IMG/VR virus record: IMGVR_UViG_2548876940_000003
Coordinates: 1 to 11,633 of that record
DNA from: a virus
Taxonomy: Duplodnaviria; Heunggongvirae; Uroviricota; Caudoviricetes
Length of the DNA stretch: 11,633 bases
Strand: one strand, 5' to 3'
Below, piece by piece: positions 1 to 11,633 of this stretch. A program made the translations under genes and the position numbers. The stretch's first letter is position 1; every line of letters starts with the position of its first letter. Below the pieces are notes generated by a model. The model made no database searches, had not been told where the DNA came from, and saw only the letters and a program-made list of their open reading frames with translations.

Positions 1-6
1 GTGAGC

Positions 7-34
7 GGGGGCGAAATGCCCCCGTGTCTTTTTT
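7..34 (+). terminator. GC-rich stem-loop followed by a T-run; putative rho-independent terminator or mRNA-stabilising hairpin upstream of FI
   Basis: Positions 7-12 GGGGGC and 18-23 GCCCCC form a perfect 6-bp inverted repeat around a 5-nt loop (gaaat), followed by gtgtcTTTTTTc. It sits just upstream of the FI ribosome-binding site (aggggg, ~38-43). Confidence 0.4.
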
Positions 35-48
35 CACAGGGGGCTGAT

Positions 49-423
49 ATGGCAACGAAAGAGCAAAATCTGAAACGGCTTGATGAACTGGCCCTGATTC
101 TGGGGCGTGAGCCGGATATATCCGGGAGTGCCGCAGAGATAGCGCAGCGGGTGGCGGAATGGGAAGAGGAAATACAGTCATCCGGCGAGGATGTTCAGGT
201 TATGAATATGGATATCCGGGAGCGGGAAACCGCGGCTCATGATGTTCGTGAGGATACATCCGGTGCGTTAACGCGCATCAGAGTTCTGACCTGCCTCCAT
301 CTCTGTGGCATTGATGGTGAAACAGGGGAATCCGTTGAGCTTGCGGATGTTGGTCGGGTGATTCTGATTATGTCCTCAGATGCAAAAACACACGTTGATG
401 GCGGAATGGCTGTTTATGCGTGA
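49..423 (+). CDS. FI: DNA-packaging protein FI-like (head assembly/packaging accessory)
   Basis: ORF track frame 1..423. The likely true start is the ATG at 49 (MATKEQNLKRLDEL...), preceded by a purine-rich RBS. It sits immediately upstream of FII as in lambda, and the N-terminal helix resembles lambda gpFI from memory; the C-terminal half is more divergent. Confidence 0.7.
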   Translation: MATKEQNLKRLDELALILGREPDISGSAAEIAQRVAEWEEEIQSSGEDVQVMNMDIRERETAAHDVREDTSGALTRIRVLTCLHLCGIDGETGESVELADVGRVILIMSSDAKTHVDGGMAVYA

Positions 424-769
424 TTTTCAGAATGCCTTTGATGCCGCCCTTGCCGGGGTGGACAGTACGATTGTTGAAGTGATGGGCATCAGTGCGCAGT
501 TCACCTCCGGTGCACAGCGTGGCGGCGAAGTTCAGGGGGTTTTTGACGATCCGGAGTCGCTGGGGTTTGCCAGTAGTGGGATCCGTATTGAAGGAAGCAG
601 CCCGTCATTATTTGTGCGGACGGATACGGTTCGTGCCGTGCGGCGTGGTGACACGCTGACCATTAATGGTGAGACGTTCTGGGTGGATCGTGTTTCTCCG
701 GATGACGGGGGCAGTTGTTATCTCTGGCTGAACCGTGGGCAACCACCCGCAGTTAACCGGCGACGATAA
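416..769 (+). CDS. FII: Head-tail connector / head completion protein gpFII
   Basis: Translation from the ATG at 416 (MRDFQNAFDAA...GVFDDPE...EGSSPSLFVRTD...RRGDTLTI...FWVDRVSPDDGGSC..LWL.RG.PPAVNRRR) is near-colinear with lambda gpFII (117 aa). The track ORF begins at 380, but 416 matches the conserved N-terminus and overlaps the FI stop (ATGCGTGA). Confidence 0.85.
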   Translation: MRDFQNAFDAALAGVDSTIVEVMGISAQFTSGAQRGGEVQGVFDDPESLGFASSGIRIEGSSPSLFVRTDTVRAVRRGDTLTINGETFWVDRVSPDDGGSCYLWLNRGQPPAVNRRR

Positions 770-783
770 ACGCAGGGTGAATT

Positions 784-1359
784 ATGGCGATAAAAGGGCT
801 TGATCAGGCGATTGAAAATCTGAGCCGGGTTCGTAAAAACGCCATTCCGTCGGCTTCAGCAATGGCTATTAACCGCGTGGCTACAACGGCGATTAATCAG
901 TCTTCATCACAGGTTGCCCGGGAGACCAGGGTGAGACGGAAACTGGTAAAGGAACGGTCCAGACTGAAACGGGCGACGATCAGAAATCCGAATGCCAGAA
1001 TTATCGTTAACCGCGGTGATCTCCCTGCTATTAAGCTGGGGATCAGGATGCTTGGTCATCGTCCGAACAGCATACTTAAAGCCGGTCAGCATCGTTATCA
1101 GCGGGCATTCATCCAGCGATTAAATAATGGGCGCTGGCATGTTATGCAACGTTTGCCAGAAGCCCGGTATGCGAAGGGCAATGACGATAAAGGAAGGAAA
1201 AAGCGTAATCGTCTTCCCATTCAGGTGGTTAAAATTCCGATGGCGGCCCCACTGAAGCAGGCTTTTGATGAGAACGTTAACCGTATCCGGCGAGAACGTC
1301 TGCCAAAAGAACTGGGCTATGCGTTGAAACAACAACTAAGGATTGTGATAAAGCGATGA
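784..1359 (+). CDS. Z: Tail completion protein gpZ
   Basis: 191-aa ORF; the N-terminus MAIKGL.QA.ENLSR and C-terminus IRRERLPKELGYAL..QLR.VIKR match lambda gpZ. Position after FII and ATGA overlap with U. Confidence 0.9.
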   Translation: MAIKGLDQAIENLSRVRKNAIPSASAMAINRVATTAINQSSSQVARETRVRRKLVKERSRLKRATIRNPNARIIVNRGDLPAIKLGIRMLGHRPNSILKAGQHRYQRAFIQRLNNGRWHVMQRLPEARYAKGNDDKGRKKRNRLPIQVVKIPMAAPLKQAFDENVNRIRRERLPKELGYALKQQLRIVIKR

Positions 1360-1751
1360 AACATACGGATATCCGTGCAGCCGTACTGGATGCACTGGAG
1401 AAACATGATACCGGGGCGACGCTTTTTGATGGTCGCCCCGCTGTTTTTGATGAGGCGGATTTTCCGGCAATTGCCGTTTATCTCACCGGCGCTGAATACT
1501 CGGGCGAAGAGCTGGACTGCGATACCTGGCAGGCGGAGCTGCATATTGAAGTTTTTCTGCCTGCTCAGGTGCCGGATTCAGAGCTGGACACGTGGATGGA
1601 GTCCCGGATTTACCCGGTGATGAGCGATATCCCGGCACTGTCAGATTTGATCGCCAGTATGGTGGCCAGCGGCTATGACTACCGGCGCGATGATGATGTG
1701 GGCCTGTGGAGTTCAGCCGATCTGACTTATGTCATTACCTATGAAATGTGA
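1356..1751 (+). CDS. U: Tail tube terminator protein gpU
   Basis: 131-aa ORF ([123 protein letters not shown]), essentially colinear with lambda gpU. Confidence 0.95.
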
Positions 1752-1758
1752 GGACGAT

Positions 1759-2499
1759 ATGCCTGTACCAAATCCAGCAATACCGGTGAAAGGTGCCGGA
1801 ACCACCCTGTGGGTTTATAACGGAAACGGCGACCCTTATGCGAACCCGCTTTCAGACGTTGACTGGTCGCGTCTGGCAAAAGTTAAAGACCTGACGCCCG
1901 GCGAACTGACCGCGGAGTCCTATGACGACAGCTATCTCGATGATGAAGATGCGGACTGGACCGCAACCGGTCAGGGGCAGAAATCCGCCGGAGATACCAG
2001 CTTCACGCTGGCGTGGATGCCCGGAGAGCAGGGGCAGCAGGCGCTGCTGGCGTGGTTTAATGAAGGTGATACCCGTGCCTATAAAATTCGCTTCCCGAAC
2101 GGCACGGTCGATGTGTTCCGTGGCTGGGTCAGCAGTATCGGTAAGGCGGTGACGGCGAAGGAAGTGATCACCCGCACGGTGAAGGTCACCAATGTGGGAC
2201 GCCCGTCGATGGCAGAAGATCGCAGTACGGTGACAGCGGCAACCGGTATGACCGTGACGCCTGCCAGTGCTTCCGTGGTGAAAGGGAAGAGCACCACGCT
2301 GACTGTGGCATTTCAGCCGGAAGGCGCAACCGACAAGAGCTTCCGTGCGGTGTCAGAGGATAAAACAAAAGCCACCGTGTCGGTCAGTGGTATGACCATC
2401 ACCGTGAACGGTGTTGCTGCAGGTAAGGTCAACATTCCGGTTGTATCCGGTAATGGTGAGTTTGCTGCGGTTGCAGAAATCAACGTCACCGACAGCTAA
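1759..2499 (+). CDS. V: Major tail tube protein gpV with C-terminal Ig-like (Big_2) domain
   Basis: The track ORF starts at 1729, but that overlaps U. The ATG at 1759 gives MPVPNP...[10 protein letters not shown]...[47 protein letters not shown]..., matching lambda gpV. The C-terminal ~90 aa are rich in T/V/S, as in the lambda Ig-like decoration domain. Confidence 0.93.
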
Positions 2500-2513
2500 T
2501 CGGAGAGTCAGCG

Positions 2514-2936
2514 ATGTTCCTGAAAACCGAATCATTTGAATATAACGGCGTGAGCGTCACGCTTTCTGAGCTGTCAGCCCTGCAGCGTATTGAGCATCTT
2601 GCCCTGCTGAAACGGCAGGCAGAACAGGCGGGAGCCGGCGACAACCTGCAGGTGAGCGTGGAGGATCTCGTCAGAACCGGCGCGTTTCTGGTGGCGATGT
2701 CCCTGTGGCATAACCATCCGCAGAAGACAAAGAGGCCGTCCATGGATGAAGCCGTTAAACAGATTGAGCAGGAAGTGCTTACCACCTGGCCCACAGAGGC
2801 AATTGCTCAGGCTGAAAATGTGGTAATGCGTCTGTCCGGTATGTCTGAGTTTGTTGTGAATAATGCTCCTGAGCAGACAGAAGACGCGGGGCCTGCAGAG
2901 CCTGTTTCTGCGGGAAAGTGTTCGACGGTGAGCTGA
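2514..2936 (+). CDS. G: Tail assembly chaperone gpG
   Basis: 140-aa ORF (MFLKTESFE.NGV.VTLSELSALQRIEHLAL.KRQAEQA...AFLVAMSLWHNHPQKT..PSM.EAVKQIEQEVLTTWPTEAI..AENVV.RLSGM.EFVVNNAPEQTEDAGPAEPVSAGKCSTVS) matches lambda gpG, including the slippery site near its 3' end. Confidence 0.93.
   Translation: MFLKTESFEYNGVSVTLSELSALQRIEHLALLKRQAEQAGAGDNLQVSVEDLVRTGAFLVAMSLWHNHPQKTKRPSMDEAVKQIEQEVLTTWPTEAIAQAENVVMRLSGMSEFVVNNAPEQTEDAGPAEPVSAGKCSTVS
2912..2918 (+). promoter_or_regulatory. Programmed -1 ribosomal frameshift slippery heptamer G GGA AAG (G to G-T fusion)
   Basis: GGGAAAG lies in the G reading frame as G_GGA_AAG, 6 codons before the G stop. The -1 frame continues open for 141 codons (ORF 2918..3343), as in the lambda G/GT system. 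Confidence 0.85.
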
Positions 2937-3343
2937 GTTTTGCCCTGAAACTGGCGCGTGAGATGGGGAGACCCGACTGGCGTGCCATGCTTGCCGGGAT
3001 GTCATCCACGGAGTATGCCGACTGGCACCGCTTTTACAGCACCCATTATTTTCATGATGTTCTGCTGGATATGCACTTTTCCGGGCTGACGTACACCGTG
3101 CTCAGCCTGTTTTTCAGCGATCCGGATATGCATCCGCTGGATTTCAGTCTGCTGAACCGGCGCGAGGCTGACGAAGAGCCTGAAGATGATGTGCTGATGC
3201 AGAAAGCGGCAGGGCTTGCCGGAGGTGTTCGTTTTGGTCCGGACGGGAATGAAGTTATCCCCGCTTCCCCGGACATGACGGAGGATGACGCAATGCTGAT
3301 GACAGTATCAGAAGGGATCGCAGGAGGAGTCCGGTATGGCTGA
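2918..3343 (+). CDS. T: T-frame portion of the tail assembly chaperone gpGT fusion, expressed by -1 frameshift from G
   Basis: The -1 frame ORF begins at the slippery site and ends at a TGA overlapping the H start (3336). Acidic C-terminus as in lambda gpT. No independent RBS is expected. Confidence 0.85.
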   Translation: MFDGELSFALKLAREMGRPDWRAMLAGMSSTEYADWHRFYSTHYFHDVLLDMHFSGLTYTVLSLFFSDPDMHPLDFSLLNRREADEEPEDDVLMQKAAGLAGGVRFGPDGNEVIPASPDMTEDDAMLMTVSEGIAGGVRYG

Positions 3344-3878
3344 ACCGGTAGGCGATCTGGTCGTTGATTTAAGTCTGGATGCAGCCAGATTTGACGAGCA
3401 GATGGCCAGAGTCAGGCGTCATTTTTCCGGTACGGAAAGTGATGCGAAAAAAACAGCGGCAGTTGTTGAGCAGTCGATGAGCCGACAGGCGCTGGCTGCA
3501 CAGAAAGCGGGTATCTCTGTAGGGCAGTATAAAGCTGCCATGCGTATGCTGCCTGCGCAGTTCACCGACGTGGCCACGCAGCTTGCAGGGGGGCAGAACC
3601 CGTTTCTCATCCTGCTGCAACAGGGCGGTCAGGTAAAAGATTCCTTCGGTGGGTTGATCCCCATGTTCGGGGGGCTTGCCGGTGCAGTCACCCTGCCGAT
3701 GGTGGGGCTCACTTCGCTGGCAGTTGCCACCGGAGCGCTGGCGTATGCCTGGTATCAGGGGGACTCAACCCTGTCCAGTTTCAATAAAACGCTGGTCCTT
3801 TCCGGTAATCAGGCAGGACTAACGGCAGATCGTATGCTGGTCCTGTCCTGTCCAGAGCAGGGCAGGCGGCAGGGCTGA
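3336..3878 (+). CDS. H: Tail tape measure protein gpH, N-terminal fragment (reading frame broken at ~3849-3853)
   Basis: Strong RBS (aggagga) and ATG at 3336. MAEPVGDLVVDLSLDAARFDEQMARVRRHFSGTESDAKK... matches the lambda gpH N-terminus. The frame ends after LVLS with an aberrant CPEQGRRQG* tail, while the H sequence continues in another frame. Confidence 0.85.
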   Translation: MAEPVGDLVVDLSLDAARFDEQMARVRRHFSGTESDAKKTAAVVEQSMSRQALAAQKAGISVGQYKAAMRMLPAQFTDVATQLAGGQNPFLILLQQGGQVKDSFGGLIPMFGGLAGAVTLPMVGLTSLAVATGALAYAWYQGDSTLSSFNKTLVLSGNQAGLTADRMLVLSCPEQGRRQG

Positions 3879-5920
3879 CGTTTAACCAGACCAGCGAGTC
3901 ACTGACGGCGCTGGTGAATGCCGGTGTGCGTGGTGGTGAGCAGTTTGAGGCGATCAGCCAGAGTGTGGCGCGTTTCTCCTCTGCATCGGGCGTGGAGGTG
4001 GACAAGGTCGCTGAAGCCTTCGGGAAGCTGACCACAGACCCGACGTCGGGACTGACAGCGATGGCACGTCAGTTCCATAACGTGACGGCGGAGCAGATTG
4101 CGTATGTTGCTCAGTTGCAGCGTTCCGGAGATGAAGCCGGGGCATTGCAGGCGGCGAACGAGGCCGCAACGAAAGGGTTTGATGACCAGACCCGCCGCCT
4201 GAAAGAGAACATGGGCACGCTGGAGACCTGGGCAGACAGGACAGCACAGGCATTCAAATCCATGTGGGATGCGGTGCTGGATATTGGCCGCCCGGACTCC
4301 TCTGCAGATATGCTCGCCAAAGCTGAAAAGGCTTTTGATGAAGCGGATAAAAAATGGCAGTGGTATCAGAGCCGAAGCCACCGGCGCGGTAAAACGTCAG
4401 CATTTCTTGCCAATCTCCGGGGGGCATGGGAGAAGAGAGAGAATGCGCGACTTGGGCTTTCAGCCGCCACGTTGCAGGCCGATCTTGAAAAGGCCAGTGA
4501 GATGGCAGCAAAAGATCGGGCTGAGTCTGAGGCATCACGGCTGAAATATACCGAAGAGGCGCAGAAGGCTTACGAACGCCTGCAGACGCCGCTGGAGAAA
4601 TATACCGCCCGTCAGGAAGAACTGAATAAGGCACTGAAAGACGGGAAAATTCTGCAGGCAGATTACAACACGCTGATGGCGGCGGCGAAAAAGGATTATG
4701 AAGCGACGCTGAAAAAGCCGAAGCAGTCCGGCGTGAAGGTGTCTGCGGGTGATCGTCAGGAAGACAGTGCTCATGCTGCCCTGTTGACGCTTCAGGCAGA
4801 ACTCCGGACGCTGGAGAAGCATGCCGGAGCGAATGAGAAAATCAGCCAGCAGCGCCGGGATTTGTGGAAGGCGGAGAATCAGTTCGCGGTACTGGAGGAG
4901 GCGGCGCAACGTCGCCAGCTGTCTGCACAGGAGAAATCCCTGCTGGCGCATAAAGACGAGACGCTGGAGTACAAGCGCCAGCTGGCTGCACTTGGCGACA
5001 AGGTTACGTATCAGGAGCACCTGAACGCGCTGGCGCAGCAGGCGGATAAATTCGCACAGCAGCAACGGGCAAAACGGGCCGCCATTGATGCGAAAAGCCG
5101 GGGGCTGACTGACCGGCAGGCAGAACGGGAAGGCACGGAACAGCGCCTGAAGGAACAGTATGGCGATAATCCGCTGGCGCTGAATAACGTCATGTCAGAG
5201 CAGAAAAAGACCTGGGCGGCTGAAGACCAGCTTCGCGGGAGCTGGATGGCAGGCCTGAAGTCCGGCTGGAGTGAGTGGGAAGAGAGCGCCACGGACAGTA
5301 TGTCGCAGGTAAAAAGTGCAGCCACGCAGACCTTTGATGGAATTGCACAGAATATGGCGGCGATGCTGACCGGCAGTGAGCAGAACTGGCGCAGCTTCAC
5401 CCGTTCCGTGCTGTCTATGATGACAGAAATTCTGCTTAAGCAGGCAATGGTGGGGATTGTCGGGAGTATCGGCAGCGCCATTGGCGGGGCTGCCGGTGGT
5501 GGCGCATCCGCGTCAGGCGGTAGAGCCATTCAGGCCGCTGCGGCGAAATTCCATTTTGCAACCGGAGGATTTACGGGAACCGGCGGCAAATATGAGCCAG
5601 CGGGGATTGTTCACCGTGGTGAGTTTGTCTTCACGAAGGAGGCAACCAGCCGGATTGGCGTGGGGAATCTTTACCGGCTGATGCGCGGCTATGCCACCGG
5701 CGGTTATGTCGGTACACCGGGCAGCATGGCAGACAGCCGATCGCAGGCGTCCGGGACGTTTGAGCAGAATAACCATGTGGTGATTAACAACGACGGCACG
5801 AACGGGCAGATTGGACCACAGGCGCTGAAGGCTGTGTATGACATGGCCCGCAAGGGTGCCCGTGATGAAATTCAGGCACAGATGCGCGATGGTGGTCTGT
5901 TCTCCGGAGGTGGACGATGA
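3842..5920 (+). CDS. H: Tail tape measure protein gpH, C-terminal ~690 codons in the shifted frame (likely pseudogene or sequencing error)
   Basis: The frame 3842.. reads PVLSRAGQAAGLTFNQTSESL...ISQSVARFSSASGVEVDKVAEAFGKLTTDPTSGL..., colinear with lambda gpH through to the C-terminal ...MRDGGLFSGGGR. The track ORF 3914..5920 starts at an internal GTG. The stop overlaps the M start (ATGA). Confidence 0.85.
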   Translation, partial: PVLSRAGQAAGLTFNQTSESLTALVNAGVRGGEQFEAISQSVARFSSASGVEVDKVAEAFGKLTTDPTSGLTAMARQFHNVTAEQIAYVAQLQRSGDEAGALQAANEAATKGFDDQTRRLKENMGTLETWADRTAQAFKSMWDAVLDIGRPDSSADMLAKAEKAFDEADKKWQWYQSRSHRRGKTSAFLANLRGAWEKRENARLGLSAATLQADLEKASEMAAKDRAESEASRLKYTEEAQKAYERLQTPLEKYTARQEELNKALKDGKILQADYNTLMAAAKKDYEATLKKPKQSGVKVSAGDRQEDSAHAALLTLQAELRTLEKHAGANEKISQQRRDLWKAENQFAVLEEAAQRRQLSAQEKSLLAHKDETLEYKRQLAALGDKVTYQEHLNALAQQADKFAQQQRAKRAAIDAKSRGLTDRQAEREGTEQRLKEQYGDNPLALNNVMSEQKKTWAAEDQLRGSWMAGLKSGWSEWEESATDSMSQVKSAATQTFDGIAQNMAAMLTGSEQNWRSFTRSVLSMMTEILLKQAMVGIVGSIGSAIGGAAGGGASASGGRAIQAAAAKFHFATGGFTGTGGKYEPAGIVHRGEFVFTKEATSRIGVGNLYRLMRGYATGGYVGTPGSMADSRSQASGTFEQNNHVVINNDGTNGQIGPQALKAVYDMARKGARDEIQAQMRDGGLFSGGGR

Positions 5921-6246
5921 AAACCTTCCGCTGGAAAGTGAAACCCGGGATGGATGTGACATCGGCTCCTTCCGTCAGGGAGGTGCGCTTTGGTGATGGC
6001 TATTCCCAGCGTGCGCCTGCCGGGCTGAACGCTGACCTGAAAACGTACAGCGTGACGCTGTCTGTCTCCCGTGAGGAGGCCACGGCGCTGGAGTCGTTTC
6101 TGGCTGAGCACGGGGGCTGGAAGGCCTTTCTGTGGACGCCGCCTTATGGTTACAGGCAGATAAAGGTGACCTGCGCAAAATGGTCGTCGCAGGTCAGTAT
6201 GCTGCGTGTTGAGTTCAGCGCAGAGTTTAAACAGGTGGTGAACTGA
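5917..6246 (+). CDS. M: Tail tip protein gpM
   Basis: 109-aa ORF (MKTFRWKVKPGMDV...VRFGDGYSQRAPAGLNA.LKTYSVTLSV.REEAT.LESFL.EHGGWK.FLWTPPY..RQIKVTCAKWSS.VSMLRVEFSAEF.QVVN), colinear with lambda gpM. Confidence 0.95.
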   Translation: MKTFRWKVKPGMDVTSAPSVREVRFGDGYSQRAPAGLNADLKTYSVTLSVSREEATALESFLAEHGGWKAFLWTPPYGYRQIKVTCAKWSSQVSMLRVEFSAEFKQVVN

Positions 6247-6944
6247 TGCAGGATATCCGGCAGGAAACACTGAATGAATGCACCCGTGCGGAGCAGTCGG
6301 CCAGCGTGGTGCTCTGGGAAATCGATCTGACAGAGGTCGGTGGAGAACGTTATTTTTTCTGTAATGAGCAGAACGAAAAAGGTGAGCCGGTCACCTGGCA
6401 GGGGAGGCAGTATCAGGCGTATCCCATTCAGGGGAGCGGTTTTGAACTGAATGGCAAAGGCACCAGTACGCGGCCCACGCTGGCAGTCTCTAACCTGTAC
6501 GGCATGGTCACCGGTATGGTGGAAGATATGCAGAGTCTGGTCGGCGGAACGGTGGTCAGGCGTAAGGTTTACGCCCGTTTTCTGGATGCGGTGAACTTCG
6601 TCAACGGAAACAGTGACGCCGATCCGGAGCAGGAGGTGATCAGCCGCTGGCGCATCGAGCAGTGCAGTGAACTGAGCGCGGTGAGTGCCTCCTTTGTACT
6701 GGCCACGCCGACGGAAACGGATGGCGCTGTTTTTCCGGGGCGTATCATGCTGGCCAACACCTGCACCTGGACCTATCGCGGTGATGAGTGCGGTTATAAC
6801 GGTCCGGCTGTCGCGGATGAATATGACCAGCCGACGTCCGATATCACGAAGGATAAATGCAGCAAATGCCTGAGTGGCTGTAAGTTTCGCAATAACGTCG
6901 GCAACTTTGGCGGCTTCCTTTCCATTAACAAACTTTCGCAGTAA
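6246..6944 (+). CDS. L: Tail tip protein gpL (C-terminal cysteine cluster, iron-sulfur binding in lambda)
   Basis: 232-aa ORF (MQDIRQETLNECTRAEQSASVVLWEIDLTEVGGERYFFCNEQNEKGEPVTWQGRQYQ.YPIQGSGFELNGKGTSTRPTL.VSNLYGMVTGM.EDMQSLVGGTVVRRKVYARFLDAVNFVNGNS.ADPEQEV...CTWTYRGDECGY.GP...DKCSKCLSGCKFRNNVGNFGGFLSINKLSQ) matches lambda gpL. Confidence 0.95.
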   Translation: MQDIRQETLNECTRAEQSASVVLWEIDLTEVGGERYFFCNEQNEKGEPVTWQGRQYQAYPIQGSGFELNGKGTSTRPTLAVSNLYGMVTGMVEDMQSLVGGTVVRRKVYARFLDAVNFVNGNSDADPEQEVISRWRIEQCSELSAVSASFVLATPTETDGAVFPGRIMLANTCTWTYRGDECGYNGPAVADEYDQPTSDITKDKCSKCLSGCKFRNNVGNFGGFLSINKLSQ

Positions 6945-6949
6945 ATCCC

Positions 6950-7693
6950 ATGACACAGACAGAATCAGCGATTCTGGCGCACGCCCGGCGATGTGCGCCA
7001 GCGGAGTCGTGCGGCTTCGTGGTAAGCACGCCGGAGGGGGAAAGATATTTCCCCTGCGTGAATATCTCCGGTGAGCCGGAGGCGTATTTCCGTATGTCGC
7101 CGGAAGACTGGCTGCAGGCAGAAATGCAGGGTGAGATTGTGGCGCTGGTCCACAGCCACCCCGGTGGTCTACCCTGGCTGAGTGAGGCCGACCGGCGGCT
7201 GCAGGTGCAGAGTGATTTGCCGTGGTGGCTGGTCTGCCGGGGGACGATTCATAAGTTCCGCTGTGTGCCGCATCTCACCGGGCGGCGCTTTGAGCACGGT
7301 GTGACGGACTGTTACACACTGTTCCGGGATGCTTATCATCTGGCGGGGATTGAGATGCCGGACTTTCATCGTGAGGATGACTGGTGGCGTAACGGCCAGA
7401 ATCTCTATCTGGATAATCTGGAGGCGACGGGGCTGTATCAGGTGCCGTTGTCAGCGGCACAGCCGGGCGATGTGCTGCTGTGCTGTTTTGGTTCATCGGT
7501 GCCGAATCACGCCGCAATTTACTGCGGCGACGGCGAGCTGCTGCACCATATTCCTGAACAACTGAGCAAACGAGAGAGGTACACCGACAAATGGCAGCGA
7601 CGCACACACTCCCTCTGGCGTCACCGGGCATGGCGCGCATCTGCCTTTACGGGGATTTACAACGATTTGGTCGCCGCATCGACCTTCGTGTGA
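6950..7693 (+). CDS. K: Tail tip assembly protein gpK (MPN/JAMM domain plus NlpC/P60-like domain)
   Basis: 247-aa ORF. It contains a complete JAMM motif (E in AESCGF, then HSHPGGLPWLSEAD = HxHx7Sx2D) and a C-terminal Cys/His region (TDCYTLF...NHAAIY..LLHH). The lambda annotation I recall uses the internal Met at 7094 (MSPEDW..., 199 aa); the 6950 start includes the whole MPN domain. The 3' end overlaps I by 103 nt. Confidence 0.85.
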   Translation: MTQTESAILAHARRCAPAESCGFVVSTPEGERYFPCVNISGEPEAYFRMSPEDWLQAEMQGEIVALVHSHPGGLPWLSEADRRLQVQSDLPWWLVCRGTIHKFRCVPHLTGRRFEHGVTDCYTLFRDAYHLAGIEMPDFHREDDWWRNGQNLYLDNLEATGLYQVPLSAAQPGDVLLCCFGSSVPNHAAIYCGDGELLHHIPEQLSKRERYTDKWQRRTHSLWRHRAWRASAFTGIYNDLVAASTFV

Positions 7694-8262
7694 AAACGGG
7701 GGCTGAAGCCATCCGGGCACTGGCCACACAGCTCCCGGCGTTTCGTCAGAAACTGAGCGACGGCTGGTATCAGGTACGGATTGCCGGGCGGGACGTCAGC
7801 ACGTCCGGGTTAACGGCTCAGTTACATGAGACTCTGCCTGATGGCGCTGTGATTCATATTGTTCCCAGAGTCGCCGGGGCCAAGTCAGGTGGCGTATTCC
7901 AGATTGTCCTGGGGGCTGCCGCCATTGCCGGATCATTCTTTACCGCCGGAGCCACCCTTGCAGCATGGGGGGCAGCCATTGGGGCCGGTGGTATGACCGG
8001 CATCCTGTTTTCTCTCGGTGCCAGTATGGTGCTCGGTGGTGTGGCGCAGATGCTGGCACCGAAAGCCAGAACTCCCCGTACACAGACAACGGATAACGGT
8101 AAGCAGAACACCTATTTCTCCTCACTGGATAACATGGTTGCCCAGGGCAATGTTCTGCCCGTTCTGTACGGTGAAATGCGCGTGGGGTCTCGCGTGGTTT
8201 CTCAGGAGATCAGCACGGCAGACGAAGGGGACGGTGGTCAGGTTGTGGTGATTGGTCGCTGA
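7591..8262 (+). CDS. I: Tail tip assembly protein gpI
   Basis: 223-aa ORF (MAATHTLPLASPGMARICLYGDLQRFGRRIDLRVKTGAEAIRALATQLPAFRQKLSDGWYQVRIAGRDVS...GEMRVGSRVVSQEISTADEGDGGQVVVIGR), colinear with lambda gpI. It starts inside the 3' end of K in another frame, as in lambda. Confidence 0.93.
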   Translation: MAATHTLPLASPGMARICLYGDLQRFGRRIDLRVKTGAEAIRALATQLPAFRQKLSDGWYQVRIAGRDVSTSGLTAQLHETLPDGAVIHIVPRVAGAKSGGVFQIVLGAAAIAGSFFTAGATLAAWGAAIGAGGMTGILFSLGASMVLGGVAQMLAPKARTPRTQTTDNGKQNTYFSSLDNMVAQGNVLPVLYGEMRVGSRVVSQEISTADEGDGGQVVVIGR

Positions 8263-8280
8263 TGCAAAATGTTTTATGTG

Positions 8281-8301
8281 AAACCGCCTGCGGGCGGTTT
8301 T
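8281..8301 (+). terminator. Intergenic I-J stem-loop with trailing T-run (putative attenuator or RNA-stability hairpin)
   Basis: AAACCGCC-tgcg-GGCGGTTT is a perfect 8-bp inverted repeat with a 4-nt loop, followed by TTTTgtcgTTTaT, in the 60-nt gap between the I stop (8262) and the J RBS/ATG (8323). Confidence 0.4.
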
Positions 8302-8322
8302 GTCGTTTATGGAGCGTGAGGA

Positions 8323-10263
8323 ATGGGTAAAGGCAGCAGTAAGGGGCATACCCCGCGCGAAGCGAAAGATAACCTGAAATCCACGCAGCTGCTGAGTGTG
8401 ATTGATGCCATCAGCGAAGGGCCGATTGAAGGTCCGGTGGATGGATTAAAAAGCGTGCTGCTGAACAGTACGCCGGTGCTGGACAGTGAGGGGAATACCA
8501 ACATCTCCGGCGTCACGGTGGTGTTCCGGGCAGGTGAGCAGGAGCAGACACCGCCGGAAGGTTTTGAATCCTCCGGCTCCGAGACGGTGCTGGGTACGGA
8601 AGTGAAATATGACACGCCGATCACCCGCACCATCACGTCGGCAAACATCGACCGCCTGCGCTTTACCTTCGGTGTGCAGGCACTGGTGGAAACCACCTCA
8701 AAGGGGGACCGGAATCCGTCGGAAGTCCGCCTGCTGGTTCAGATACAGCGTAACGGTGGCTGGGTGACGGAAAAAGACATCACCATTAAGGGCAAAACCA
8801 CCTCGCAGTATCTGGCCTCGGTGGTGGTGGATAACCTGCCGCCGCGCCCGTTTAATATCCGGATGCGCAGGATGATGCCGGACAGCACCACAGACCAGCT
8901 GCAGAACAAAACGCTCTGGTCGTCATACACCGAAATCATCGATGTGAAACAGTGCTACCCGAACACGGCACTGGTCGGCGTACAGGTGGACTCGGAGCAG
9001 TTCGGCAGCCAGCAGGTGAGTCGTAATTATCATCTTCGCGGGCGCATTCTGCAGGTGCCGTCGAACTATAACCCGCAGACGCGACAATACAGCGGTATCT
9101 GGGACGGAACGTTAAAACCAGCATACAGCAACAACATGGCCTGGTGTCTGTGGGATATGCTGACCCACCCGCGCTACGGCATGGGGAAACGTCTTGGTGC
9201 GGCGGATGTGGACAAATGGGCGCTGTATGTCATCGGCCAGTACTGCGACCAGTCAGTGCCGGACGGCTTTGGCGGCACGGAGCTGCGCATCACCTGTAAT
9301 GCGTACCTGACCACACAGCGCAAGGCGTGGGATGTGCTCAGTGATTTCTGCTCGGCGATGCGCTGTATGCCGGTATGGAACGGGCAGACGCTGACGTTCG
9401 TGCAGGACCGACCGTCGGATAAGGTGTGGACCTATAACCGCAGTAATGTGGTGATGCCGGATGATGGCGCGCCGTTCCGCTACAGCTTCAGCGCCCTGAA
9501 GGACCGCCATAATGCCGTTGAGGTGAACTGGATTGACCCGAACAACGGCTGGGAGACGGCGACAGAGCTTGTGGAGGATACGCAGGCCATTGCCCGTTAC
9601 GGTCGTAACGTCACGAAGATGGATGCTTTTGGCTGTACCAGCCGGGGGCAGGCACACCGCGCCGGGCTGTGGCTGATTAAAACAGAACTGCTGGAAACGC
9701 AGACCGTGGACTTCAGCGTGGGCGCAGAAGGGCTTCGCCATGTGCCGGGCGATGTCATTGAAATCTGCGATGATGACTATGCCGGTATCAGCACCGGCGG
9801 GCGCGTGCTGGCGGTGAACAGCCAGACCCGGACGCTGACGCTCGACCGTGAAATCACGCTGCCATCCTCCGGTACCACGCTGATAAGCCTGGTTGACGGA
9901 AGTGGCAATCCGGTCAGCGTGGAGGTTCAGTCCGTCACCGACGGCGTGAAGGTGAAAGTGAGCCGTGTTCCTGACGGCGTTGCTGAATACAGCGTATGGG
10001 GGCTGAAGCTGCCGACGCTGCGCCAGCGCCTGTTCCGCTGCGTGAGTATCCGTGAGAACGATGACGGCACGTATGCCATCACTGCCGTGCAGCATGTACC
10101 GGAAAAAGAAGCCATCGTGGATAACGGGGCGCACTTTGACGGCGACCAGAGCGGCACGGTGAATGGTGTCACGCCGCCAGCGGTACAGCACCTGACTGCC
10201 GAAGTCACCGCAGACAGCGGGGAATATCAGGTGCTGGCGCGCTGGGACACCCGAAGGTGGTGA
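8323..10263 (+). CDS. J: Tail tip / central fibre host-specificity protein gpJ, N-terminal ~640 codons (frame broken at ~10250)
   Basis: RBS tgagga and ATG at 8323. [54 protein letters not shown]... is colinear with lambda gpJ. The ORF ends prematurely with ...ARWDTRRW* where lambda reads ...[14 protein letters not shown].... Confidence 0.9.
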
Positions 10264-11633
10264 AGGGCGTTAGCTTCCTTCTTCGCCTGACCGTGGCAGC
10301 GGATGACGGCAGTGAGCGGCTGGTCAGCACGGCCCGGACGACGGAAACCACATACCGCTTCAGGCAACTGGCGCTGGGGCGTTACACGCTGACAGTCCGG
10401 GCGGTAAATGCGTGGGGACAGCAGGGCGATCCGGCGTCGGTATCGTTCCGGATTGCCGCACCGGCAGCGCCGTCGCGGATTGAGCTGACGCCGGGCTATT
10501 TTCAGATAACCGCCACGCCGCATCTTGCGGTTTATGATCCGACGGTACAGTTTGAATTCTGGTTCTCGGAAAAGCGGATTGCGGATATCAGGCAGGTTGA
10601 AACCACAGCCCGCTATCTTGGCACGGCGCTGTACTGGATAGCTGCCAGTATCAATATTAAGCCGGGCCATGATTATTATTTTTACATCTGCAGTGTGAAC
10701 ACCGTTGGCAAATCGGCATTTGTGGAGGCCGTCGGCCAGCCGAGTGATGATGCATCCGGCTATCTGGATTTTTTCAAAGGCGAGATAGGGAAAACCCATC
10801 TGGCTCAGGAGTTGTGGACGCAGATTGATAACGGTCAGCTTGCGCCTGACCTGGCTGAAATCAGGACGTCCATTACGGATGTCAGCAATGAAATCACGCA
10901 GACCGTCAATAAGAAACTGGAAGACCAGAGTGCGGCAATTCAGCAGATACAGAAGGTTCAGGTTGATACAAATAATAACCTGAACAGCATGTGGGCTGTG
11001 AAGCTGCAGCAGATGCAGGACGGACGCCTTTATATCGCGGGTATTGGTGCCGGTATTGAGAACACCTCTGACGGCATGCAGAGTCAGGTGCTGCTGGCGG
11101 CGGACAGGATTGCGATGGTTAATCCTGCGAATGGCAACACAAAACCGATGTTTGTTGGTCAGGGCGATCAGATATTCATGAACGACGTGTTCCTGAAACG
11201 CCTGACGGCCCCCACCATTACCAGCGGTGGAAATCCACCGGCATTTTCCCTGACACCGGACGGAAAGCTGACCGCTAAAAATGCGGATATCAGTGGCAGT
11301 GTGAATGCGAACGCCGGGACGCTCAACAATGTCACGATTAACGAGAACTGTCGGGTTCTGGGAAAACTGTCCGCGAACCAGATTGAAGGCGATCTCGTTA
11401 AAACAGTGGGCAAAGCTTTCCCCCGGGACTCCCGTGCACCGGAACGGTGGCCATCAGGGACCATTACCGTCAGGGTTTATGACGATCAGCCGTTTGACCG
11501 GCAGATTGTTATTCCGGCGGTGGCATTCAGCGGCGCTAAACATGAGAGAGAGCATACTGATATTTACTCCTCATGCCGTCTGATAGTGCGGAAAAACGGT
11601 GCTGAAATTTATAACCGTACCGCGCTGGATAAT
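10254..11633 (+). CDS. J: gpJ C-terminal continuation in the shifted frame (partial; open to the end of the window)
   Basis: By my manual translation, the frame starting at 10254 has no stop through 11633 and reads [104 protein letters not shown]...[47 protein letters not shown]..., matching the distal half of lambda gpJ. It is not in the ORF track, presumably because it lacks a start codon and a stop within the window. Confidence 0.85.

What the first reader, a model, noticed from the sequence alone, without database searches (positions are those of the whole stretch)
3837..3860. Tape-measure gene H is split by a 5-bp tandem duplication
At 3837-3853 the sequence reads ctg gtc ctg tcc TGTCC aga gca. 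In frame 0 this gives ...ADRMLVLS then CPEQGRRQG and a stop at 3876-3878. The conserved gpH sequence (LVLS-RAGQAAGLTFNQTSESL...) resumes in the +2 frame from 3842. Removing one copy of the 5-nt direct repeat (tgtcc / ctgtc) restores a single ORF of about 859 codons, colinear with lambda gpH (853 aa). An intact tape measure is essential for tail assembly and sets tail length, so if the lesion is real this tail module is non-functional (defective or cryptic prophage). Otherwise it is an assembly artefact.
Basis: partly seen in the sequence, partly recalled or inferred. Interest (0 to 1): 0.6.

Follow-up and report, generated by a model that had tools for sequence, protein, structure and literature searches.

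The report
Frameshifted lambda-type tape-measure gene H
A lambda-like prophage in an E. coli draft genome carries a real, inherited 5-base repeat expansion that breaks its tail tape-measure gene, which is an ordinary case of prophage decay.

Summary
At 3840-3853 the window reads GTCCT GTCCT GTCC, where every intact relative reads GTCCT GTCC. One relative, E. coli AR_0089, has identical flanks across 3822-3940. The extra 5 nt shifts the frame at codon 172 of the lambda-type tape-measure gene H. Nine wrong codons (CPEQGRRQG) follow, then TGA at 3876-3878. Deleting one unit restores a single 859-aa ORF. That ORF aligns without gaps to intact 859-aa E. coli tape-measure proteins and is 90% identical, end to end, to lambda/DE3 gpH (853 aa).

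The lesion is not an assembly artefact. The window is the whole contig AIAU01000221.1 (GCA_000446445.2). The same 180-aa truncated product and the same 14-nt repeat occur in three or four other sequencing data sets, and one of them differs by two SNPs. None of 5,426 complete E. coli genomes carries the lesion.

Recoding is unlikely. The overlap has no slippery heptamer and no homopolymer, and the two-frame arrangement is not conserved.

The most likely cause is replication slippage at a pre-existing 1.8-unit pentanucleotide repeat. It leaves an H pseudogene, so this module cannot make tails by itself. Rescue by a co-resident lambdoid prophage remains possible. J on the same contig also carries a 1-nt frameshift, which I could not verify elsewhere. 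Interest is low.

The parts
3336..5920 (+). Tape-measure gene H (lambda gpH homologue), now a frameshifted pseudogene: 2585 nt where intact alleles have 2580 nt
   Evidence: After removal of 5 nt it is a single 859-aa ORF, 90% identical end to end to DE3/lambda gpH and 94-96% identical, without gaps, to intact 859-aa E. coli proteins.
3336..3878 (+). N-terminal ORF of 180 aa: 171 native H residues, 9 out-of-frame residues (CPEQGRRQG), then TGA
   Evidence: Pfam TMP_2 (PF06791) matches profile positions 2-121 of 208, E = 2e-44. It contains the hydrophobic segment at about residues 112-140. It starts at ATG with GGAGGAG upstream.
3840..3853 (+). Pentanucleotide repeat GTCCT GTCCT GTCC (2.8 units). 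Intact alleles have GTCCT GTCC, so one 5-nt unit is extra.
   Evidence: AR_0089 is identical to the window over 3822-3940 except for these 5 nt. This is the only period-5 run of 13 nt or more in the window.
3876..3878 (+). Premature stop codon TGA in the shifted frame
3914..5920 (+). Remainder of H. The native frame is open from 3809. The first canonical start is GTG at 3914, giving 668 aa, with no evident Shine-Dalgarno sequence upstream.
   Evidence: Pfam TMP_2 profile positions 144-207 plus Tape_meas_lam_C (PF09718). Upstream sequence.
2514..3343 (+). Tail assembly chaperone genes G (2514-2936) and T (2918-3343), with the conserved -1 slippery site G GGA AAG at 2912-2918. This is the intact context immediately upstream of H.
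   Evidence: Pfam Phage_TAC_2 and Phage_tail_T. GGGAAAG at 2912 in the X XXY YYZ register of the G frame.
5917..8262 (+). Downstream tail-tip genes M, L, K and I, apparently intact
   Evidence: Called genes and their Pfam families. Lengths equal those of annotated homologues.
8323..11633 (+). Tail-tip and host-range gene J, also split: 8323-10263 (646 aa) and 10260 to the contig end. A 1-nt deletion lies at about 10251.
   Evidence: Seen only on this contig.

Best explanation
The window is the tail-gene block (FI-FII-Z-U-V-G-T-H-M-L-K-I-J) of a lambda-like prophage of E. coli. Its tape-measure gene H gained one extra unit of a short pre-existing direct repeat: GTCCT GTCC became GTCCT GTCCT GTCC. 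The most likely mechanism is slipped-strand mispairing during replication. The extra 5 nt shifts the reading frame after codon 171, and translation ends nine codons later at TGA 3876-3878.

The 180-aa product keeps only the N-terminal fifth of the protein. It lacks most of the ruler and the C-terminal part that docks in the tail tip. The remaining 668 codons have no good start signal.

The mutation is real and inherited in a small lineage. gpH is needed to start polymerisation of the tail tube and to set its length. This module therefore cannot build tails from its own genes, and the prophage is defective for virion production unless a co-resident lambdoid prophage supplies H in trans or repairs the gene by recombination.

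Shown here: the lesion, its derived state, and its presence in independent data sets. Inferred: the slippage mechanism and the loss of tail assembly.
For: - **Sequence and translations:**
- **Five extra nucleotides relative to all relatives:**. An intact allele (AR_0089) has 100% identical flanks over 3822-3940.
- **Repair restores the gene:** the repaired ORF is 859 aa, gap-free against intact 859-aa proteins and colinear with lambda/DE3 gpH at 90% identity.
- **The break is inside a conserved domain:** it lies within Pfam TMP_2. The N fragment matches profile positions 2-121 and the C fragment matches 144-207.
- **Independent occurrence:** ENA ERZ28640788, Logan SRR18173770, ERR180862 and SRR12495199 all carry the 14-nt tract, with 0-2 SNPs elsewhere.
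- **Rarity:** all 7,797 proteins found at E <= 1e-100 include single full-length ORFs of 853-866 aa. No complete E. coli genome has the expanded repeat.
- **Role of gpH:** it determines tube length, interacts with gpG/gpGT, and its C-terminus sits in the tail tip (PMC10721106, PMC5009743). Its N-terminal hydrophobic segment is at residues 116-140 (PMC12617516).
- **Second lesion:** a frameshift in J on the same contig fits a decaying module.
Against: - No reads were inspected. The case against an artefact rests on independent assemblies, and two of these (ERZ28640788 and SRR18173770) share a SNP and are probably one sample.
- Loss of tail assembly was not tested.
- Frameshift mutants can be leaky. 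A rare -1 slip of the P-site tRNA at GGC with TGA in the A site would re-enter the H frame. H is needed in only a few copies per tail.
- The exact repaired protein is absent from a collection of about 15 billion sequences, so the immediate intact ancestor has not been sampled.
- Only 11.6 kb of the prophage is available, so the state of the rest of the element is unknown.
Confidence: 0.88

Rival explanations
1. The 5-nt duplication is a sequencing or assembly artefact, and the strain actually has an intact 859-codon H.
For: The source is a fragmented draft assembly in which this contig is at least number 221. A second frameshift, in J, is seen only on this contig. That could point to imperfect consensus quality.
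Against: The identical tract is present in an ENA metagenome assembly and three Logan run assemblies, which were made from other reads with other assemblers. One of these differs by two SNPs elsewhere. The tract is not a homopolymer, so it is not the usual kind of read error (my own knowledge of sequencing error profiles, not tested here).
Confidence: 0.03
2. The two-frame arrangement is decoded on purpose or by compensation. A -1 ribosomal frameshift between 3809 and 3878 would yield a near full-length tape measure, two residues longer, in useful amounts.
For: The downstream frame is -1 relative to the upstream frame and is open from 3809, giving a 70-nt overlap. The RNA at 3836-3960 folds stably, z = -3.25. 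The codon before the stop is GGC preceded by G, so a P-site slip onto GGG at the slow TGA is conceivable.
Against: No X XXY YYZ heptamer is present, not even a relaxed two-tRNA slip site, and there is no homopolymer in the overlap. The window has no Rfam frameshift element. The arrangement is absent from every homologue, so it is recent and not a conserved recoding signal. The genuine G/T slip site upstream is of the classical type.
Confidence: 0.04
3. The two halves of H work as separate polypeptides (a split tape measure), so tails are still made, perhaps shorter ones.
For: Tail length scales with tape-measure length (PMC10721106 citing Katsura 1987; PMC1796659). A 668-aa C-terminal piece would retain the tip-docking end. 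Three deposited phage genomes have H annotated as two CDS.
Against: The first start in the H frame is a GTG 36 nt after the stop, with no Shine-Dalgarno sequence. The break lies inside the conserved TMP_2 domain and separates the N-terminal hydrophobic segment from the rest (PMC12617516). The three split H annotations are different single-base indels at codons of about 67-95, two of them in G runs. They are most simply read errors and give no precedent for this lesion.
Confidence: 0.02
4. The pentanucleotide tract is a reversible on/off switch (a contingency repeat) for tail production.
For: The frame depends on the unit number of a tandem repeat. Slippage could in principle remove the unit again.
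Against: The tract has only 2.8 units. All samples of this allele carry the OFF state, and the exact ON protein is not in the collection of about 15 billion sequences. No other H allele shows variation in unit number.
Confidence: 0.02

Closest known systems
Bacteriophage lambda gpH (tail length tape-measure protein, 853 aa; Pfam TMP_2 PF06791 + Tape_meas_lam_C PF09718)
   Same: The repaired protein has 90% amino-acid identity end to end, the same two Pfam domains, and the same position between G/T and M-L-K-I-J.
   Different: The repaired protein is 859 aa, not 853 aa, because of a variable central segment at residues of about 316-400. As it stands, the gene is interrupted by a +5 frameshift at codon 172.
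Intact 859-aa tape-measure alleles of E. coli prophages and phages (AR_0089 WP_119178241.1, phage Kati, PhiR34_1, PhiR68_2)
   Same: The gene is 2580 nt after repair. Nucleotide identity is 94.7-95.7%, alignment is gap-free, and AR_0089 is locally identical over 3822-3940.
   Different: These alleles have GTCCT GTCC and a single ORF, whereas the window has one more GTCCT unit.
Defective lambdoid prophages of E. coli O157 Sakai (Asadulghani et al. 2009, PMC2669165)
   Same: These are lambdoid prophages with point lesions in morphogenetic genes, residing in genomes that carry several related prophages. E. coli genomes with this H family hold a median of 2 copies and up to 7.
   Different: In Sakai, complementation and recombination between prophages were shown by experiment. 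Here they are only a possibility, and the rest of this prophage and genome was not available.

Membership tests
Lambda-type tail tape-measure protein (gpH) | Pfam TMP_2 (PF06791) and Tape_meas_lam_C (PF09718) above gathering score | tested here: met
   TMP_2 scores 152 bits in the N fragment and 50.5 bits in the C fragment (cut-off 30.2). Tape_meas_lam_C scores 75.9 bits (cut-off 23).
Lambda-type tail tape-measure protein (gpH) | End-to-end colinearity with lambda gpH | tested here: met
   After removal of 5 nt, 777 of 861 positions are identical and residues 1-859 align to 1-853.
Lambda-type tail tape-measure protein (gpH) | Gene order: follows chaperone genes G and T, with their -1 slip site, and precedes M-L-K-I-J | tested here: met
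   GGGAAAG lies at 2912 in the correct register.
Lambda-type tail tape-measure protein (gpH) | One uninterrupted reading frame encoding the whole ruler (a functional gene) | tested here: not met
   The gene is split into 180-aa and 668-aa ORFs. It is a member of the family by descent and is now a pseudogene.
Slipped-strand duplication pseudogene | The extra sequence is one more unit of a direct repeat already present in intact alleles, with otherwise identical flanks | tested here: met
Slipped-strand duplication pseudogene | The lesion is present in independent sequencing data sets, so it is heritable and not an artefact | tested here: met
   Three or four other data sets carry it, and one has 2 SNPs.
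Programmed -1 ribosomal frameshift site | Slippery heptamer X XXY YYZ in the overlap of the two frames | tested here: not met
   None is present in 3806-3878, and neither a relaxed slip site nor a homopolymer is found.
Programmed -1 ribosomal frameshift site | Two-frame arrangement conserved among homologues | tested here: not met
   Homologues are single ORFs, and no other record carries the tract.
Programmed -1 ribosomal frameshift site | Measured frameshifting efficiency | not testable with these tools
   This needs a reporter assay.
Simple-sequence contingency locus (phase variation) | Repeat-number polymorphism, with both ON and OFF states, within the lineage | tested here: not met
   All five contigs carry the OFF state. 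The exact ON protein is not in the collection. The tract has only 2.8 units.

The most novel reading that the evidence does not exclude
The frameshifted H is not fully dead. A low-level -1 slip of the P-site tRNA at GGC-TGA (3873-3878), helped by the stable hairpin that starts at the stop codon, could give a trace of tape measure two residues longer than normal. That would keep the prophage weakly able to make tails. Alternatively, the retained 180-aa membrane-active N-terminal fragment could have been co-opted by the host.
Probability: 0.03. Interest if true: 0.4.

Novelty: already known. Interest (0 to 1): 0.08.

Why it matters
The wider significance is small. The result marks this prophage tail module as defective by itself. 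That is useful for annotation (H should be flagged as a frameshifted pseudogene, not as two genes) and for predicting whether the element can form infectious particles. The 14-nt tract is also a convenient lineage marker: it occurs in a handful of public data sets and in none of 5,426 complete E. coli genomes. The finding opens no new question about tape-measure proteins or recoding.

Tried and rejected
- **Recoding.** I scanned the 70-nt overlap for slippery heptamers, relaxed slip sites and homopolymers and found none. An Rfam scan of the window found nothing. The RNA fold shows stable hairpins, but with no slip site I do not read them as a stimulator.
- **Other carriers of the lesion.** Exact-pattern scans of the GTDB representatives, IMG/VR and JGI metagenomes gave no hits. 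A 50-nt junction query that cannot seed on the unexpanded allele gave no hit in 5,426 complete E. coli genomes.
- **The intact ancestor.** An exact look-up of the repaired 859-aa protein did not find it in the collection. The closest intact proteins read are 94-98% identical.
- **Quasi-palindrome origin.** I asked whether the nearby synonymous GCA (3859-3861) arose together with the duplication by quasi-palindrome correction. I rejected this because the intact AR_0089 allele already has GCA.
- **Split H annotations in deposited phages.** PhiR70_1, PhiR49_1 and 1H12 might have been a precedent for a working split gene. They are unrelated single-base indels, two of them in G runs, so they are not a precedent.
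- **Identity of the strain.** Paper searches for the accession numbers found nothing.
- **The J frameshift.** I could not verify it elsewhere.
- **Unavailable sources.** Xu et al. 2014 on gpG/gpGT-gpH interactions is not held.

Full report
**What is in the sequence**

Window 3830-3859 reads tcgtatgctg gtcctgtcct gtccagagca. The ORF that starts at ATG 3336 translates to 171 residues of a lambda-type tape-measure protein, ending ...GLTADRMLVLS. Then come CPEQGRRQG and TGA at 3876-3878. The tape-measure sequence continues as PVLSRAGQAAGLTFNQTSESL... in the frame of 3842 and stays open to 5920. That frame is -1 (equivalently +2) relative to the upstream frame and is open from 3809. Its first canonical start is GTG 3914, giving 668 aa.

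**The extra five bases are derived**

- Megablast of 3336-5920 against 50,697 phage records finds 122 records that cover at least 80% of the query. The best full-length matches span 2580 nt against the window's 2585 nt.
- A 501-nt query around the site matches 496 nt in every listed phage and E. coli record that covers the whole query.
- Alignment with E. coli ECONIH2, phage PhiR34_1 and DE3/lambda places one 5-nt gap. Relatives read CTG GTCCT GTCC AGA, and the window reads CTG GTCCT GTCCT GTCC AGA.
- The intact tape-measure gene of E. coli AR_0089 (2580 nt, annotated as one CDS) is identical to the window from 3822 to 3940 apart from these 5 nt.

So the event added one unit to a repeat that already had 1.8 units. 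This is the signature of slipped-strand mispairing (inference from established knowledge). It is the only period-5 run of 13 nt or more in the window. Runs of 14 nt or more occur 0.07 times per base-shuffled window.

**What the gene is**

Deleting one unit gives a single 859-codon ORF. It aligns without gaps to intact 859-aa E. coli tape-measure proteins at 94-96% identity. It also aligns end to end with DE3/lambda gpH (853 aa) at 90% identity. The only indels are in the variable central segment.

Pfam finds TMP_2 and Tape_meas_lam_C. The break falls inside TMP_2: the N fragment matches profile positions 2-121 and the C fragment matches 144-207.

The neighbours are FI, FII, Z, U, V, G, T upstream and M, L, K, I, J downstream. 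The classical G/T slip site G GGA AAG is at 2912-2918 in the right register. A search of 5.8 billion cluster representatives returned 7,797 relatives at E <= 1e-100. The best-scoring listed hits are single proteins, mostly of 853-866 aa.

**Real or artefact**

The window is the complete contig AIAU01000221.1 of NCBI assembly GCA_000446445.2. An exact look-up of the truncated 180-aa product finds it on four further contigs:
- an ENA metagenome scaffold (ERZ28640788, 6.4 kb)
- Logan assemblies of SRR18173770, ERR180862 and SRR12495199

All four carry GTCCTGTCCTGTCC and are 99.95-100% identical to the window. The metagenome scaffold has two SNPs, at 3929 and 5411, and SRR18173770 shares the first. 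These two are therefore probably one sample, and they differ in genotype from the window. That leaves at least three data sets independent of the window's own assembly.

A 5-nt non-homopolymer duplication reproduced by different reads and different assemblers is not an assembly artefact. The lesion is also rare:
- no hit in 5,426 complete E. coli genomes, using a 50-nt junction query that cannot seed on the unexpanded allele
- none in the GTDB species representatives, IMG/VR or JGI metagenomes
- the exact repaired protein is not in the collection of about 15 billion sequences

The immediate intact ancestor is therefore unsampled, and the lesion looks fixed in a small lineage.

**Could the cell read through it?**

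A -1 shift anywhere in 3809-3878 would restore the frame. However, the overlap has no X XXY YYZ heptamer, no relaxed two-tRNA slip site and no homopolymer. Rfam finds nothing in the window. The arrangement is absent from all homologues.

The RNA at 3836-3960 does fold stably, z = -3.25, and the repeat sits in the 5' arm of a hairpin that the duplication lengthened. Without a slip site I treat this as incidental. At most it may have stabilised the slipped intermediate. A rare P-site slip at GGC with TGA in the A site cannot be excluded, and it would make the mutant leaky, not null.

A working split gene is also unlikely. The GTG at 3914 has no Shine-Dalgarno sequence. The break lies inside a conserved domain. 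The hydrophobic N-terminal segment (residues 116-140 in lambda, PMC12617516) would also be separated from the ruler.

Three deposited phage genomes (PhiR70_1, PhiR49_1, 1H12) have H annotated as two CDS. Their lesions are different single-base indels near codons 67-95, two of them in G runs. They look like read errors and give no precedent for this lesion.

**Consequence (inferred)**

gpH forms the oligomer around which gpV polymerises. It sets tube length, is chaperoned by gpG/gpGT, and has its C-terminus in the tail tip (PMC10721106, PMC5009743). A 180-aa stub cannot do this, so the module should not make tails from its own genes.

E. coli genomes that hold this gene family carry a median of two copies and up to seven. 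Lambdoid prophages are known to complement each other's morphogenetic defects and to recombine (PMC2669165). Rescue in trans or repair by recombination is therefore possible. The Logan contigs all break at the same points (2696 or 2953, and 4614), which hints at other related modules in those genomes.

**Other lesions**

J is also split on this contig. The window has GACAC-CCGAAGG where 86 complete genomes, otherwise 100% identical over 10150-10350, have GACACGCCGAAGG. This gives TGA at 10261-10263. Inserting one base opens 1104 codons to the contig end. This lesion is seen only on this contig, so I cannot say whether it is real. T has an in-frame 9-nt deletion.

**Verdict**

This is an ordinary frameshift pseudogene in a well-known gene of a well-known phage family. 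It has value for annotation and as a lineage marker, but it is not novel in kind.

Noticed in passing
window 10240-10263 (J, 8323-11633): J is frameshifted by a 1-nt deletion: GACAC-CCGAAGG where 86 otherwise identical complete genomes have GACACGCCGAAGG. This gives TGA at 10261-10263 and splits the Ig_J domain. The lesion is seen only on this contig, so real versus error is undecided.
   Followed up: partly
window ~3270-3274 (T, 2918-3343): T has an in-frame 9-nt deletion relative to ECONIH2, PhiR34_1 and DE3, so it is 141 aa where they have 144 aa.
   Followed up: no
window 1-4296 versus 4529-11633: The module is a mosaic. The right part (distal H through J) is 98.5% identical to an O26/O111-type prophage (UTME-2). 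The left part is only about 85% identical to it, and 92-94% identical to lambda-like phages.
   Followed up: partly
L010 2332-4892, L011 2337-4897, L012 2336-4916: Deposited phage genomes PhiR70_1, PhiR49_1 and 1H12 have H annotated as two CDS because of single-base indels at H codons of about 67-95. Two are in G runs and one is an extra T. They are probably read errors in otherwise viable phages.
   Followed up: partly
L005 (window positions 3929 and 5411): The metagenome scaffold carrying the same lesion differs from the window by only two SNPs. Both are first-codon-position and nonsynonymous (R197C, L691V), and both lie in the disabled downstream part of H. This is compatible with relaxed selection, but n = 2.
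   Followed up: partly
L006-L008 (window 2696/2953 to 4614): All three Logan contigs with the lesion end at window 4614 and start at 2696 or 2953. These are probably assembly-graph branch points caused by other lambdoid tail modules in the same genomes.
   Followed up: no
L009 ~14777 (window 10769): The closest O26/O111-type relative (UTME-2) has its own J pseudogene, from an 11-nt deletion, annotated as frameshifted, with an IS600 just downstream. This shows how common such lesions are.
   Followed up: no
proteins P0004, P0006 (cluster of the 180-aa product): Other truncated N-terminal H products end at ...LTADR (166 aa, 16 contigs, longest 416 kb) and ...ADRML (168 aa), which is 2-6 codons before the lesion site. 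They may be contig ends or independent disruptions.
   Followed up: no
window 3836-3960: This stretch folds into two stable RNA hairpins (-61.3 kcal/mol, z = -3.25). The pentanucleotide repeat forms the 5' arm of the first hairpin, pairing with GCAGGGCAGG. The duplication lengthens that stem.
   Followed up: partly
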